Positions 3,001-63,000 of a stretch of 64,000 nt of DNA are shown piece after piece; the first letter of the stretch is position 1, and each line of letters begins with the position of its first letter. Position numbers: made by a program. The DNA comes from Thalia democratica (taxonomy: Eukaryota). The stretch spans positions 62,806,001 through 62,870,000 of the forward strand of contig OZ241832.1 in assembly GCA_965202585.1 (NCBI GenBank). Reading direction: 5' to 3'.

Positions 3001-6000
3001 ATAGTCATCAAGTTAATCACAATTATATTAATACAAAGGGACTTTGACAGTTGAGTAGTGACGAACGTTTTTAGTAGCTTCACATGACTCTTTTGACCAT
3101 TTATTTATATCAGAATCATAACATAGTATGACTTTTGAAATATTATAAAAATTCAATATTTTACCCCCAACTAAAGAAGATTCGCCTTCAAATGAAAAAA
3201 AACTTCGTCCTTGAAGTGTTACAAACATATTGCTAGTTTTATCAAAAACTTCACAATTAGCGTTTAAATCTGCACCACCAATGACAAACAATTTGCTTTT
3301 AACACAAACTAAACTATGATTAGCTCTCTCTTCAATCATACTTGGCATTGGTGTCCAAGTATCACCATATACATCATATGATTCTACTGTTTTTAAAACA
3401 TTTAAATCATCTCCACCACCTGAAACTACAATACTTTCTTCAAATATTGTACAAGCTGCACAAGATCTTTTTTCCTTCATTTTTGCAATTTGTTTCCATT
3501 TAAATAATTTTGCATCAAATTCAAGACTAGAATTAAAACAATCAGTTTCATTATCATCACCACCAAAAAGATAAATATTATCAACATAAGCACACGAACA
3601 AAAGTTTAGACGTTCATCAGGTATATCAGTTACTTTAATCCATGTATTAGTTACAGGTGAATATTTTTCAACTGATTTGATAGGACCTTGTTTATTAAAT
3701 CCACCAAAAACATATATTTCTCCTTTAAGGTATACTGATATTAAATAATACCGTTCTTCTAACATTGGAGGAAGATCCTTGTGTTTCTCAAAATTGTTCA
3801 CATCTAACACCTTTACTTGATTTATGGCTTTTTCTTCCTCATCATCTACACCTCCACAAATAAGAGTATTGAACATGTTTTGGTTACAGTGTCTACTTTT
3901 ATTATGAATAAACGGTAAACGGTACACATTCTGGTAATAACAATCTCTGTTTTTCAATACTTCAAGACAATCCTTATTCTTTGAAATACAAGAAGAAAAA
4001 CTTATGAGATGTTTTAAACACTGATCTGATAAAAGATTAAGACGAACTCTTAATAATAATTGTTTTGCGAATTTGCTACGTTCTTCTATCTTGTAACTCA
4101 ACCATTTATTTGATGTATTGTAAATTTCAACTTCTGAATCAATTTGTAAACTAGAACTTGCAAGTATTTTAAAGACAGTATTAAAATCTAACTCTAGAAA
4201 GCTTTCTTTTTCAACTATCATACTAAAACAACGTTCTATGTATCTAAAAACAGTTAAGTAAAGATCTGACAGGTTGAATTTTGAGGCTAGCTGATAAAAC
4301 AATACTGCATTTTGAATTTGTAGTTTTTCGTTTAGTTTTTCAACTGCTTTACTTATCGAATGTTCATTTAATGAATGTTTAGTTAATTTCATAGCTGATG
4401 TTAGTTCACAATGCTCTCGAGTCGACTCATTTCATCTGAAATTTTTTAACTCAAATTAATTCAGTTATAGTATATTTAGCTGTTGATAGGTGTTACCAAG
4501 TACATTACCTACATTATATGTAATTTTTAGCTAAAATTAAATAATTACTACTTGTTTATAAAAAATAACATTAATTAGTTAATGTAGAAGTTTTAAAAAT
4601 TTTGAAGTTTTGAAAAATTTTTTGTGTTTTTTATTATCCGTTTTTTTTATGTTTAAAATATTAAAATTGTATTATATTATAATTGAATAATTTTTTCTTA
4701 TTATGTTATACAAGTTACAAATGTCAATTTAAATAATAATATTTCTGCAAATCAAAAACATACAACACACATCTTTACAAAAAGATTCATTTCTAAGATA
4801 TCAGCAAACATTATCATTATGATTTTAAATATACATTTTTAACACTAACGTAAAAAAAACTACACCACAGTACTTGCATTATACTTTAAATACTAAAAAT
4901 ATAAAAATTGTTTATATAAATAGCAAAAGCATCTTAAAATGTGTTAGTATAACTTACTTTTTATCAAATTAATTAGTGTTATATATTTGAAGCATTTAAT
5001 TATAACATGTACTTAACAGATATTACATATCTAACACAATTTCTTAAAAAAAAACTTGAATAATTATGTTTTAAAACTAAATATTTGTTGACTAAACAAC
5101 GGATACAGTTAAAACAACAATTAAAATCTAATCTGCAATACTTTATTGTACTGTAAGAGTCAGTTAAGTAAGTATAAAAAGTATGCATTACACTAATTGA
5201 AATCAATTTTCAAAGTTCATTTCTATAAAAAGGTTAAATTAGATAAACATAACTGTTTTTCTCTTCAAAGTTATTAGTTGAACAATATGTACAGAATAAA
5301 GTTGTTACTTACACATAACACTGACTTACCCATCTTATTAAAGCCATCAGAAATTTGCAAAGTTTTACCTTGGAAACTAACTTCAGAATTTTCCTTGCAT
5401 AATTTTAGAAAACTATTACGTTTATCAACATTACAAGCGTTCAAATTTCCTTCACAATTCTTCACACCACTTCCGCTTAAACTGATTCTCGCAGACATGA
5501 CTTTAAAATTTTTATTATCCAGTATATTTTTACAGCTGTACTAAAAGTAATTTAACACTTTTAACAGTTAAAACTAATAAGTCAAAGTTTGAATATTTTT
5601 GAAATAAAAACCATTTGTAACTAACTGTTTTTTTATTTTATTAATACTATTTTCTTTTTAAAATACTTTAATACTAGTATTTAAAATATATTTAACGTCT
5701 AGTTATTAATATGATAATATTTAGGGTGTACGGTTAAGGTATAACTAAACTAACACTAACAATTATATTTAAATTTATTTTAGAACTAAATGATATTAAA
5801 AGTATTATTACCAATTGAAACAACTAGGCATGAACTTTGTTGGTTTTATTTATCTTATCTAACACTAAAAATATATCAAGAACATCATACTTTATATAAT
5901 ATTTTATATGTAGTCAAAACTTTTAAACAAGAATCAAATTTAACAGGAATAAACTTTAAGAAGGGACAATTATCTACTTGGAATTCAAATCAAAACATTA

Positions 6001-60000: not shown

Positions 60001-63000
60001 TGGTGATAATAACAACACAAATTGTGAAGTTTTTGACAAAACTAGCAATGTGTTTGTTACACTTGAAACACCTGAATTTTGGTCATATGGGGTGAAAGCC
60101 ATTTCATTTAGAATTAAAATATTTGTCTTTTTAAATTTTACTCAAAAAGTTTTATGTTATGATGTTGTTAAAGATGAATGGTCAAAAGAATCATGTATAG
60201 TTACTGAAAATATTTCAGATTATTCAGCTGTCAAAATACCTTTATTTTAAAAAACATAGCATGAACTAGATGTTTCTTTTTTTGATGAGGTATTAAACTT
60301 TGAGTAAGCTAACTTAAACAACTAATTATTATTATTGTTTAAGTTTAAGCAGTTATTTCGTTTTTCAGTCTCTTTATACTTGTTAAGTGCTAAACTTGTT
60401 TTTTTAATTAGTACTAAAGATAATTGAAAAAAATTTAACGATGATTTTTAACATCAAAACAAGCAATTTCCTTAAATAAAATTTAAACTAACCGATTTAA
60501 ATACGTTTTGTGTTTATTAATAACAATTTAGCTACCGTTAAAAATTTTTTATATCACTTTTTGTTTGTAAACTTTATATATATTTAAAAGCTTTAATAGT
60601 TTCATAAATTTATAAACTTATACTTATACTTATTAAACGTTTTGACTGAATAGAAATTTCATGAAATAATAGTAAAGAATTTATTTTATGAATGTTTTTT
60701 ATGGTGTATAGTTTTCGAACATAAAACATTCGTATAAAGTTAATAAACCTACTAAAGTTATTGTGTTTCTACTTAATATGAAAATTATTTGACTTCTTAC
60801 TTTCTTAGTTCAATAAATCTGTATAACCTATATAAAGAAATTTGTTACAGTGTAAAAGACGTTAAAAGGTATCTGTGGTGTGCGACTAGATAACCGAAAG
60901 GTTTTTTTATGCAACAGGTCCTATTTATCTTTTTTTTACGTCAGCGACTTTTTTTCGTGAAATAAACTATACATGACGTAAACAAGATGTTAAAAAATGA
61001 TATACTTTTCAGAGTTGATAAAATTTTACTATTCCGATCTGATAAAATTTTAAATATTACTGAAATGCTTACTGCATTTACTAGCTCTATTTACAAAAAC
61101 TCGTAAGCACTTTAAATATTTATAAAAGTTTTAACTATTTAAAAACCTTAAGCATTTTTTTGTTATCAAGTATTTAAAGTATCTATTTTATATATGATTA
61201 CTTTTACACGTAAAAAGCTAATAGTTATGACATTTAATTAATTTCAGTACGAAAATACTATTTGCAAGTATTATTTTAATTATTTTTATATTAAAAAGCA
61301 CGTTTTATTCTAAACAAAATCAAAATAATTTTAAATTAAAATAACCACAACTTTCTATTAAGTAAAAAAAGAAGTTAAAACGTGTGCTTAACATTAGTAA
61401 TTAATAATTTTTTTACTTATAATTATACTAAAAGAATCAAAGTTGATAATAAGAATTGTTAGATTTGATCTAGAAAAGATAAGGATCTTGATCTAGAAAA
61501 TTTTAAATAATGTTATGTTTTTTAGGTAATAATTTGTATAATTTGGATTTTTTTTCTTAAAAAAAAAGTTACTGTAATCAATTTCATGTTACGAATTAAA
61601 AATCAGCATTTAATAAGAGCTATTAAATAGCTATATAAAAAAGACAAAATTGAAAATATTTCACAATTTTTAAAAGCAAATTAAAAATCAGATTGAAAAG
61701 TAAAAGTACTTATTTCGTTATACGATTGGGACATTGAAAAGGATACTTAAATTTTGCAGTAATTATTTAAACAGTCTTGTATAACTAATTTTAAAAAATT
61801 TTTGAAAATATTGTAACATATACAAATGTATCTACAAAAAAAAAGTGTTTGTTTAAAACTCTAAACTAAAATTTAAACAGTAGTTATATTATTATTCATC
61901 CTATAAATAAAAACAAATTGTTCAGTAATCTTCTTTTGTTGTACAACATATGTTTCTGTGTGTTAATGAATCAAGACACTTTAACTGGGTTCTGTAAAAA
62001 ATTATTACTGTAATGAAAGAATAGAAGCATAGAATAATATGGGTGTATACATGTTTTTTATCAAAATAAAATAATTTCTACAAATAATAGTTGATAATAG
62101 GTAAAATATTTAATATTAAATCCGACTGTTATAAAACTATTTAATATTTGTAATTATTAAGTCTTAAACAAGTAAAGTAAACTAAAATACACAACAAAAC
62201 AATAAATCATAATATAAACAAAGCACTCACGTTAATGGGAAAGATAACTGATTCAAATTTACTGTTGTTAAGCAATGAAGGAAATACATTCTTTACATTT
62301 AATAATTACGTCACAATATAAATGAGGTTGTTTCAACTGTTTAATTTGTATTGCAAAGTTTGTCAATTTAGTTTTTATGTTTGTAATCTATTTGAACAAA
62401 ATAAAACATCAACCATTAGTTAAAGAATTAATAAAATTTAATAAAACTTAACAACGGCGAAGACAATAAAAGTCACAAAAACTCAATGTAACATGTTTTT
62501 ATATATTAAATGCTTGTAAAGGTTAAATCAAAGTTATGTACAATTAGGAAGCAGATTTAGTTTAAATGTAAAACTAAAACATTAAAAAGTTAAAATTTAA
62601 GAAATCAAAACACAAAAAAAAACAAACTTGTTATTGACTTACAAACTACTGACCGATAATTAAGTTGCAGCGACATAAATAAAATCACAATGACTAAAAA
62701 TTACATATAAACTGTGTTTAATAATTATAAAAATATAAAAAAATAATTGGTTGATAAAGTAGCAGTCGGGTGTTTAAATTAAATGTCTCATATAGATATT
62801 TTAAATATTTAATAAGTAAACATGTGTTATATATGAAAGTTAAAATGTAAAATAACAAGGTGGTTATACAGTAACCTCTCGCTTATTTACGCACATTGTG
62901 TCCACAGAAAAAGTGCGTAAAGATATGAGAGATCGTAAAGATACGAGAGGTATCAAATATACTTACTATAATGGCTGTTTTTTTATATTGCTTCTAGTTA

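What the first reader, a model, noticed from the sequence alone, without database searches (positions are those of the whole stretch)
3028..60250. Expanded kelch-like family that appears to keep only the C-terminal half of the BTB domain
Seen: five paralogues with the same two-exon, phase-1 layout. Established: KLHL proteins are BTB-BACK-Kelch; BTB dimerises and, with the 3-box, binds CUL3. By eye, exon 1 plus the first residues of exon 2 match the second half of BTB: LNISYVD..SFLNFCK..EVNF..KNLQ and KIKLEEIS...IF.NFL.FC resemble I.L..(V/I).....F..LL.F.YTG.I.I...NV, and SNKLDV....RCEII resembles A..LQ...L...C..F. The canonical YTG is replaced, and I found no N-terminal half (AHR.VL...S.YF) in the window. 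Inference: CUL3-uncoupled or monomeric decoy adaptors, or a re-purposed N-terminal module.
Basis: partly seen in the sequence, partly recalled or inferred. Interest (0 to 1): 0.65.

Follow-up and report, generated by a model that had tools for sequence, protein, structure and literature searches.

The report
Kelch-like gene cluster lacking most of BTB
Five neighbouring copies of a kelch-like gene, two of them clearly intact, encode BACK-plus-Kelch proteins that keep only the tail end of the usual BTB domain behind a short family-specific leader, which is a modest variation on a well-known protein family.

Summary
The five two-exon, phase-1 kelch-like copies are real. Only g2 (533 codons) and g4 (522) are clearly intact. 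In g1 a 5-nt insertion just after the conserved acceptor breaks the frame, and g3 and g5 are pseudogenes.

Pfam finds BACK plus 4-5 Kelch repeats in exon 2. It finds no BTB at E<=10 in exon 2 or in any exon 1. Profile alignments to solved BTB-BACK structures run 11-19 residues upstream of the BACK start, so the last BTB helix is present, and it lies wholly in exon 2.

Exon 1 shows no BTB similarity. Its profile search against PDB gave two chance-level hits.

No BTB N-terminal half was found in 425 ORFs upstream, in the introns and elsewhere in the window, nor by a six-frame motif scan.

Best reading: a lineage-specific, birth-and-death cluster of KLHL-derived BACK-Kelch proteins with a vestigial BTB tail and a new leader exon. 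Function remains inferred. The joined spliced protein was not built, and no confident structure model was obtained.

The parts
22468..22651 (+). g2 exon 1: ATG plus 61 codons plus the first base of a split codon. It encodes the family-specific leader with the conserved FL.FCK motif.
   Evidence: Open frame, ATG and G|GTAAGT phase-1 donor. No Pfam or PDB family match.
23403..24820 (+). g2 exon 2, intact, 471 whole codons plus stop: BTB tail, BACK, six-blade-sized Kelch region.
   Evidence: Acceptor tttcag|AT in phase. Pfam BACK at aa 44-141 and Kelch at aa 184-471.
23468..23524 (+). g2 BTB remnant: exon-2 residues 22-40, equivalent to the last BTB helix that packs on the 3-box.
   Evidence: hmmsearch alignments to 11 BTB-BACK chains start at query positions 22-30, upstream of the Pfam BACK start at about 41.
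23534..23827 (+). g2 BACK domain (exon-2 residues 44-141).
   Evidence: PF07707, E 5.8e-19, model positions 4-101 of 103.
23954..24817 (+). g2 Kelch propeller region (exon-2 residues 184-471).
   Evidence: Kelch_1 E 1.2e-26 with 4 stretches; PF24681 E 4.9e-25. KEAP1, KLHL12, KLHL20 and KLHL2 Kelch structures match at E 1e-19 to 1e-23.
48932..49109 (-). g4 exon 1: 59 codons plus 1 base. Divergent leader that still carries FL.FCK and NK.
   Evidence: hhalign against the other four exon-1 peptides: P 6.5e-4 over 33 columns.
46445..47835 (-). g4 exon 2, intact, 462 whole codons plus stop.
   Evidence: Acceptor tttcag|GT in phase. BACK E 3.9e-19, Kelch_1 E 2e-37.
5330..5498 (-). g1 exon 1: 56 codons plus 1 base.
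3028..4435 (-). g1 exon 2. The 467-codon frame (3028-4431) is open, but a 5-nt insertion just after the conserved acceptor puts it out of phase with exon 1.
   Evidence: BACK E 4.1e-20.
37921..38104 (+). g3 exon 1: 61 codons plus 1 base.
38995..40390 (+). g3 exon 2 remnant, a pseudogene: acceptor CAG changed to CGG, in-frame stop, frame switch near 39602.
57795..57978 (+). g5 exon 1: 61 codons plus 1 base.
58857..60250 (+). g5 exon 2 remnant, a pseudogene with three frameshifts (frames 2, 1, 3, 2).

Best explanation
This is a tandem, partly decayed cluster of lineage-specific genes derived from a BTB-BACK-Kelch (KLHL-type) ancestor.

In this family the BTB domain has been cut down to its last helix, possibly its last two. 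In solved KLHL structures these helices form a four-helix bundle with the first two BACK helices, the 3-box. The remnant is encoded at the start of exon 2.

Ahead of it, a separate exon 1 supplies a roughly 60-residue, lysine/serine/asparagine-rich leader. This leader evolves fast, is probably helical, carries a short conserved FL.FCK motif, and has no detectable homology.

Shown: the architecture, the gene structure, which copies are broken, and that the open frames were kept by selection.

Inferred: the Kelch propeller still binds a partner. The protein lacks beta1/alpha1 and the B1-B3 sheet, so it cannot make the strand-swapped BTB dimer. It also lacks the alpha3-beta4 clamp on CUL3, so it is unlikely to be a canonical dimeric CRL3 adaptor. 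It would then act as a stand-alone Kelch binding protein or competitor. At most it would keep weak CUL3 contact through the 3-box groove.
For: - Domains. Exon 2 of g2, g4 and g1 carries BACK plus Kelch. No BTB was listed at E<=10 for any of the 8 peptides scanned.
- BTB remnant. The exon-2 N-terminus plus BACK profile hit 11 BTB-BACK chains (E 2.7e-11 to 3.9e-4). The alignments begin at query positions 22-30, which is 11-19 residues before the BACK start. The KEAP1 alignment is consistent.
- Structural context. Passages of Canning 2013 (PMC3597819) state three things. The 3-box is the first two BACK helices and bundles with BTB alpha5/alpha6. The dimer is a beta1-beta5' swap. The alpha3-beta4 loop clamps Cul3 H2.
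- No missing BTB half. 0 of 139 + 148 + 128 + 10 ORFs match BTB, and the motif scan was empty.
- Exon 1 is real coding sequence. It is open in 5 of 5 copies with the same ATG context, donor and phase. The per-codon stop chance in the background is 0.089, so 60 open codons have a chance of about 0.004 per copy (my arithmetic). The divergent g4 leader is still related to the others (P 6.5e-4).
- Selection. 0 of 5000 neutrally mutated g2 exon-2 sequences stayed open at 10%, 13.5% or 27% substitution. dN/dS is 0.26-0.75 by region.
- Weak constraint on the remnant. Between g2 and g4, dN is 0.64 in the pre-BACK 43 residues against 0.30 in BACK.
Against: - The 47 pre-BACK residues searched alone find no BTB chain (2 chance hits, E 0.35 and 1.9). 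The remnant is therefore seen only as an extension of BACK alignments.
- The exon-2 AlphaFold model is unusable (mean pLDDT 33.7). There is no structural confirmation and no Foldseek result.
- Exon-by-exon searching cuts any BTB-like stretch in two and lowers sensitivity. The joined protein was not searched.
A degenerate alpha4 in exon 1 is therefore not excluded.
- There is no transcript evidence. A conserved ACAG lies about 40 nt upstream of the ATG, and 14 codons are open before the ATG in g1, g2 and g5. An upstream exon remains possible.
- Three of the five copies are damaged, and dN/dS near 0.5 is only moderate constraint.
Confidence: 0.6

Rival explanations
1. One reading: the proteins keep the whole C-terminal half of BTB (beta4, alpha4, beta5, alpha5, alpha6). 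Exon 1 would encode beta4-alpha4-beta5, and the half-domain would act as a CUL3-uncoupled or re-purposed module.
For: The order along the protein is collinear with BTB-BACK-Kelch. The last helix is really there. Two helices are predicted before BACK, though at low confidence. The LNI...FL.FCK motif is conserved between divergent copies.
Against: No BTB hit for any of the 5 exon-1 peptides in Pfam at E<=10. None for their profile in PDB. In the intact g2 the motif is reached by 804 of 2000 shuffles, in g1 by 1508 and in g5 by 253. The spacing between LNI and FL.F differs by 5 residues between paralogues, and a further 8-residue gap follows. Exon 1 alone is modelled as one long helix with no strands (pLDDT 68; weak evidence).
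Confidence: 0.2
2. The gene models are incomplete. One or more upstream exons are cis-spliced into the conserved ACAG about 40 nt before the ATG. They would supply the missing BTB half, making these ordinary BTB-BACK-Kelch genes.
For: Fourteen codons are open before the ATG in g1, g2 and g5. ACAG is conserved upstream in 4 of 4 aligned copies. There are no transcript data.
Against: A stop lies immediately before those 14 codons in each copy. Upstream identity (mean column identity 78%) is no higher than in the intron or exons, so nothing marks that stretch as coding. 0 of 366 upstream ORFs of at least 30 aa match BTB: 139 for g2 and g4, 148 for g1 and g5, 79 for g3. These cover all 8.7-17 kb up to the neighbouring gene. 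The six-frame motif scan, which has no ORF-length limit, was empty. If exon 1 really were the second half of BTB, the first half would have to lie upstream and be conserved in every copy, yet g4 shares no detectable DNA similarity with the others upstream of exon 2.
Confidence: 0.12
3. The whole cluster is dead: 5'-truncated duplicates of a full-length KLHL gene located elsewhere, drifting as pseudogenes, with exon 1 an accidental open frame.
For: Three of the five copies are visibly damaged. dN/dS is about 0.5. The surroundings are repeat-rich with no other recognisable gene.
Against: Neutral drift at the observed divergence would add 10-24 stops per exon 2, and 0 of 5000 simulations stayed open. 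Three exon-2 frames of 462-471 codons are open. The chance of 462 open codons in background sequence is 2e-19. All indels between g1, g2 and g4 inside exon 2 are in multiples of three. dN/dS is below 1 in every region.
Confidence: 0.08

Closest known systems
BTB-BACK-Kelch (BBK / KLHL-KBTBD) CUL3 substrate adaptors, e.g. KBTBD2, KLHL11, KLHL3, KEAP1, gigaxonin, vaccinia A55
   Same: BACK domain followed by a six-blade-sized Kelch region. The sequence aligns through BACK and into the last BTB helix. The Atlas's nearest clusters are all KLHL/KBTBD-like.
   Different: No Pfam BTB domain. The beta1/alpha1 extension, the B1-B3 sheet and helices A1-A2 are absent from the gene and from the window. 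A separate leader exon of unknown origin stands in their place. BBK proteins are defined as long-form BTB plus BACK plus 4-7 kelch motifs (Stogios 2005, PMC1257465, passages).
Human KLHDC7A (Kelch protein with a predicted BACK domain and no BTB)
   Same: An architecture of BACK plus Kelch without BTB. [quoted passage not shown]
   Different: KLHDC7A has a long N-terminal region of about 430 residues and only a partial BACK. Here BACK is full length (model positions 4-101 of 103), and the N-terminal region is about 105 residues including a BTB tail.
ElonginC / Skp1 (minimal or modified BTB folds)
   Same: These are precedents showing that the BTB fold tolerates loss or addition of terminal helices. 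ElonginC lacks A5 (Stogios 2005, passages).
   Different: They keep the N-terminal B1-B3/A1-A2 core and lose the C-terminal end. This family does the reverse, keeping only the C-terminal end.

Membership tests
BTB-BACK-Kelch (KLHL/KBTBD) | Long-form BTB/POZ domain (Pfam PF00651) at the N-terminus | tested here: not met
   No BTB listed at E<=10 for 3 exon-2 and 5 exon-1 peptides. None in 425 other ORFs. The search was exon by exon; the joined protein was not searched.
BTB-BACK-Kelch (KLHL/KBTBD) | BACK domain (PF07707) after the BTB | tested here: met
   E 5.8e-19 (g2), 3.9e-19 (g4), 4.1e-20 (g1), covering model positions 4 to 99-102 of 103.
BTB-BACK-Kelch (KLHL/KBTBD) | C-terminal propeller of 4-7 Kelch repeats | tested here: met
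   Kelch_1 with 4-5 stretches, E 1e-26 to 2e-37. PF24681 E about 1e-25. Matches to solved Kelch domains.
BTB-BACK-Kelch (KLHL/KBTBD) | BTB-mediated homodimer and CUL3 binding | not testable with these tools
   No CUL3 sequence was available to the complex tool, and the structure model was too poor. No complex job was run.
BTB fold, C-terminal half (beta4/B3, alpha4/A3, beta5, alpha5/A4, alpha6/A5) | Last helix (alpha6/A5) directly before the 3-box | tested here: met
   Alignments to 11 BTB-BACK chains start at exon-2 positions 22-30, which is 11-19 residues before BACK.
BTB fold, C-terminal half (beta4/B3, alpha4/A3, beta5, alpha5/A4, alpha6/A5) | alpha5/A4 helix | tested here: inconclusive
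   A helix at exon-2 residues 2-16 appears only in a model of pLDDT about 32. The HMMER envelope reaches upstream, but no aligned match does. The pre-BACK profile alone finds no BTB.
BTB fold, C-terminal half (beta4/B3, alpha4/A3, beta5, alpha5/A4, alpha6/A5) | beta4-alpha4-beta5 encoded by exon 1 | tested here: not met
   No BTB similarity in Pfam or PDB profile searches. The motif fit is at chance level in 3 of 5 copies. Exon 1 alone is modelled as a single helix.
KLHDC7A-like BACK-Kelch without BTB | BACK plus Kelch with no BTB | tested here: met
   This is architecture only.
KLHDC7A-like BACK-Kelch without BTB | Sequence relatedness to KLHDC7A/B | not tested
   No reference sequence was available.

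The most novel reading that the evidence does not exclude
A family of 'decapitated' KLHL proteins keeps exactly the alpha5/alpha6 plus 3-box four-helix bundle, which forms the groove for the CUL3 N-terminal extension. It has shed the dimerising and CUL3-clamping part of BTB. Such proteins would be monomeric and could bind Kelch targets without ubiquitylating them. They could also occupy the CUL3 N-terminal extension, acting as built-in inhibitors or competitors of full-length KLHL adaptors. The fast-evolving Kelch face and the birth-and-death turnover would point to a conflict-driven role.
Probability: 0.12. Interest if true: 0.6.

Novelty: new variant of a known kind. Interest (0 to 1): 0.3.

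Why it matters
If the gene models hold, this is a natural experiment in removing the BTB domain from a KLHL adaptor while keeping BACK and Kelch. It could show what BACK-Kelch does without dimerisation and without the main CUL3 interface, and whether the alpha6/3-box bundle is a stable unit on its own. BACK-plus-Kelch without BTB already has at least one precedent, KLHDC7A. Lineage-specific, partly decayed KLHL clusters are also not unusual. The finding is therefore of moderate to low general interest unless an inhibitory or decoy role is shown.

Tried and rejected
- Three-frame translation of the 10 kb upstream of g2 for a Pfam scan. The tool rejected it because the frames contain stops. It was replaced by scanning individual stop-to-stop ORFs, carried in alignments of unrelated ORFs (A1, A5, A6, 25/27, 36/38). 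One limit applies: for A1 only 25 of 31 matched families were listed. The 6 hidden ones have E above 0.093.
- AlphaFold2 of exon 2 with the 8-row paralogue alignment gave mean pLDDT 33.7 and pTM 0.23. That is too poor to use, so no Foldseek search was run on it.
- AlphaFold2 of exon 1 gave a single helix with pLDDT 68. A lone helix is not suitable for Foldseek, so none was run.
- Atlas search with exon 1 gave no usable hit. With exon 2 it gave only generic KLHL-like clusters, many labelled as fragments. It lists at most three Pfam families per cluster, so it cannot tell whether BTB-less relatives exist.
- Genome contigs (bacteria and archaea) scans with A2 and A7 found no relative. One search failed because the 8-row alignment had no conserved stretch.
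- The pre-BACK 47-residue profile alone against PDB found no BTB.
- Rfam and tRNA scans of the window found nothing.
- Literature searches for a BTB-less or BTB-truncated BACK-Kelch family returned nothing relevant. Only KLHDC7A emerged, through and passages.
- Complex prediction was not run. No CUL3 sequence could be supplied, and the report does not claim binding.
- Protein lengths come from coordinate arithmetic only.
As a result there is no census of relatives, no nearest full-length parent, no deep alignment, and no identification of the source organism.
- Supplementary files of the papers were not seen. Table S1 of Canning 2013 lists BTB-Kelch family members and might bear on atypical architectures.
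- I do not take this contig for human (24% GC).

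
Full report
WHAT IS THERE

The window is 64 kb, about 24% GC, and has no N. Under the standard code the only long open frames belong to one gene family. The ciliate code opens frames everywhere and is not indicated. I do not take the contig for human.

tblastn with the g2 and g4 exon peptides finds exactly five copies:
- g1, minus strand, 3028-5498
- g2, plus strand, 22468-24820
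- g3, plus strand, 37921-40390
- g4, minus strand, 46445-49109
- g5, plus strand, 57795-60250

The pairs g1/g2 and g4/g5 lie head to head. g1, g2, g3 and g5 are about 73-76% identical in DNA through exon 2, parts of the intron, exon 1 and up to about 500 nt upstream. g4 matches the others only within exon 2.

GENE STRUCTURE

Every copy has an exon 1 of 56-61 codons that begins with ATG and ends in G|GTAAGT with one base of a split codon, which is phase 1. The introns are 751-1096 nt. The conserved acceptor is tttcag.

For g2 the coordinates give 61 + 1 + 471 = 533 codons. For g4 they give 59 + 1 + 462 = 522 codons.

Only g2 and g4 are clearly intact.
- g1 carries a 5-nt insertion 9 nt downstream of the conserved acceptor. 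This puts its otherwise open 467-codon frame out of phase. Only a weak AG (first exon base 4415) would restore the phase.
- g3 has lost the acceptor (CAG to CGG), has an in-frame stop at the exon start, and switches frame near 39602.
- g5 has three frameshifts.

ARE THE GENES REAL?

The open frames are far beyond chance. The per-codon stop frequency in the intergenic background is 0.089, so 462 open codons have a probability of 2e-19. When g2 exon 2 was mutated neutrally at 10%, 13.5% or 27% substitution, 0 of 5000 sequences stayed open, and the mean number of new stops was 10-24. dN/dS is 0.50-0.55 over exon 2 and 0.26-0.75 by region. That is moderate purifying selection on a fast-evolving family.

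Exon 1 is open in 5 of 5 copies, with the same start context, donor and phase. The divergent g4 leader is still detectably related to the other four (hhalign P 6.5e-4 over 33 columns). Exon 1 is therefore a real, conserved coding exon. It evolves faster than exon 2: dN is 0.22-0.36 among g1, g2, g3 and g5, against 0.13-0.19 for the first 145 residues of exon 2.

DOMAINS

Pfam finds BACK at exon-2 residues 44-141 (E 4e-20 to 6e-19) and 4-5 Kelch_1 repeats across residues 184-471. No BTB is listed, even at E<=10, for the 3 exon-2 peptides or the 5 exon-1 peptides.

Against solved structures, exon 2 matches many Kelch domains (KEAP1, KLHL12, KLHL20, KLHL2). A profile of the first 145 residues matches 11 BTB-BACK chains: KBTBD2, KLHL11, KLHL3, KEAP1, gigaxonin, KLHL22 and vaccinia A55.

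Those alignments begin at query positions 22-30. The Pfam BACK model start maps to about residue 41, so they begin 11-19 residues before it. According to passages of Canning et al. 2013 (PMC3597819), the first two BACK helices are the 3-box, and they form an antiparallel four-helix bundle with BTB helices alpha5 and alpha6. The segment at exon-2 residues 22-40 is therefore the equivalent of the last BTB helix.

A helix at residues 2-16, which would correspond to alpha5, appears only in an AlphaFold model of very low confidence (mean pLDDT 33.7). Searched on their own, the 47 pre-BACK residues find no BTB chain. Between g2 and g4 this pre-BACK region is the most diverged part of the protein, with dN 0.64 against 0.30 in BACK. 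That fits a weakly constrained vestige.

The exon-1 profile found only two chance-level PDB hits, eL38 at E 0.44 and SVBP at E 0.55, and no BTB chain. The Atlas gave no usable hit. AlphaFold models exon 1 alone as one long helix (residues 8-60, pLDDT 68). This is weak evidence, but it shows no strand-helix-strand pattern.

This is a crude test of my own design. The number of shuffles reaching the observed score was 1508 for g1, 804 for g2, 12 for g3, 104 for g4 and 253 for g5. The intact g2 is at chance.

The second motif (A..LQ...L...C..F) is at chance on the exon-2 N-terminus in all five copies, reached by 510-1327 of 2000 shuffles. Its best ungapped placements start at residues 12 and 17. 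The KBTBD2 alignment puts the C..FL positions of the last helix at residues 28-32.

The spacing around the conserved LNI and FL.FCK elements also varies between paralogues. There is a 5-residue gap between them in g4 and a further 8-residue gap after FL.FCK. That is easier to reconcile with a loosely structured leader than with a packed half-domain.

IS A BTB HALF HIDDEN ELSEWHERE?

I scanned stop-to-stop ORFs with Pfam in four sets:
- 139 ORFs of at least 30 aa upstream of g2 and g4, with g2 exon 2 as a positive control that behaved as expected
- 148 ORFs upstream of g1 and g5
- 79 ORFs upstream of g3 plus 49 other ORFs of at least 48 aa elsewhere in the window
- 10 intron ORFs

None of the 425 matched BTB. 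For the first set only 25 of 31 matched families were listed, and the 6 unlisted ones have E above 0.093.

It gave 1 very loose hit, on the antisense strand of g4, where 1.6 are expected by chance.

The region upstream of the ATG is no better conserved than the intron and exons. Fourteen codons are open before the ATG in g1, g2 and g5, each preceded directly by a stop. A conserved ACAG about 40 nt upstream could be an acceptor. An upstream exon therefore cannot be excluded without transcripts, but nothing BTB-like is available to fill it.

HOW IT LIKELY WORKS

Shown: BACK plus Kelch, a BTB tail of one (perhaps two) helices, a new leader exon, selection on the open frames, and birth-and-death turnover.

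Inferred from the cited structural work: the retained helices persist because they are part of the bundle with the 3-box. The strand-swapped dimer (beta1-beta5') and the alpha3-beta4 clamp on Cul3 H2 cannot form because those elements are missing. The protein is then a monomeric Kelch binder that is uncoupled from CUL3, or only weakly coupled to it through the 3-box groove.

None of this was testable here. No CUL3 sequence could be supplied to the complex tool, so no complex job was run.

COMPARISON WITH KNOWN FAMILIES

By sequence the family is KLHL/KBTBD-like. It fails the defining BTB criterion of the BBK family, which is long-form BTB plus BACK plus 4-7 kelch motifs (Stogios 2005, PMC1257465, passages).

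The nearest architectural precedent I found in print is human KLHDC7A, predicted to carry a BACK domain without BTB and of unknown function (PMC12035522, passages). Three searches for a described BTB-truncated BACK-Kelch family returned nothing relevant. These cover only the held library, and supplementary files were not seen.

LIMITS

The bacterial and archaeal genome collection held no relative. I therefore could not take a census of the family, find its full-length parent, name the organism, or build an alignment deep enough for a confident structure.

VERDICT

I rate this a new variant of a known kind, with interest 0.3.

Noticed in passing
window 5589-22372, 31649-32121, 37273-37741, 54873-57690: A dispersed AT-rich repeat family fills the intergenic space. 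Pieces are about 100-650 bp long and 65-84% identical. It runs up to about 100 nt before the ATG of g1, g2, g3 and g5, so the putative promoters sit in repeat-derived sequence.
   Followed up: partly
window 28799-32118 and 34998-37740: A segmental duplication of about 3 kb (74-82% identity) lies upstream of g3.
   Followed up: no
window 17826-18008 and 19360-19489: Two arrays of a 41-42-bp tandem repeat with GC-rich CCGG/GGATCC-containing cores separated by T runs (88-91% matches). These arrays account for the odd PDPD/GSG-rich open frame at 19299-19658.
   Followed up: no
window 40813-41510: A 327-bp unit repeated 2.1 times at 97% identity, just downstream of g3, in the most GC-rich part of the window (0.316). 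Its two 94-aa open frames (41012-41293 and 41339-41620) have no Pfam match.
   Followed up: partly
window 4417-4427 (minus strand): The 5-nt insertion that breaks g1 creates the sequence GTCGACTCGAG, which is adjacent SalI-like and XhoI-like palindromes. It is probably a small local duplication, but its cause is unexplained.
   Followed up: no
about 40 nt upstream of each ATG, e.g. window 22426-22431 in g2: An ACAG preceded by a T/A-rich run is conserved in g1, g2, g3 and g5. It could be a cis- or trans-splice acceptor for a 5' leader, which would bear on where the transcripts start.
   Followed up: no
whole window: No tRNA, no Rfam family and no Pfam domain other than BACK and Kelch was found in 64 kb. 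Apart from the five kelch-like copies, the region is gene-poor.
   Followed up: yes
g1-g2 Kelch region (g2 exon-2 residues 184-471): Between the close pair g1 and g2, the Kelch region has the highest dN/dS (0.68) and BACK one of the lowest (0.36). This hints that the binding propeller is the part diversifying fastest.
   Followed up: partly
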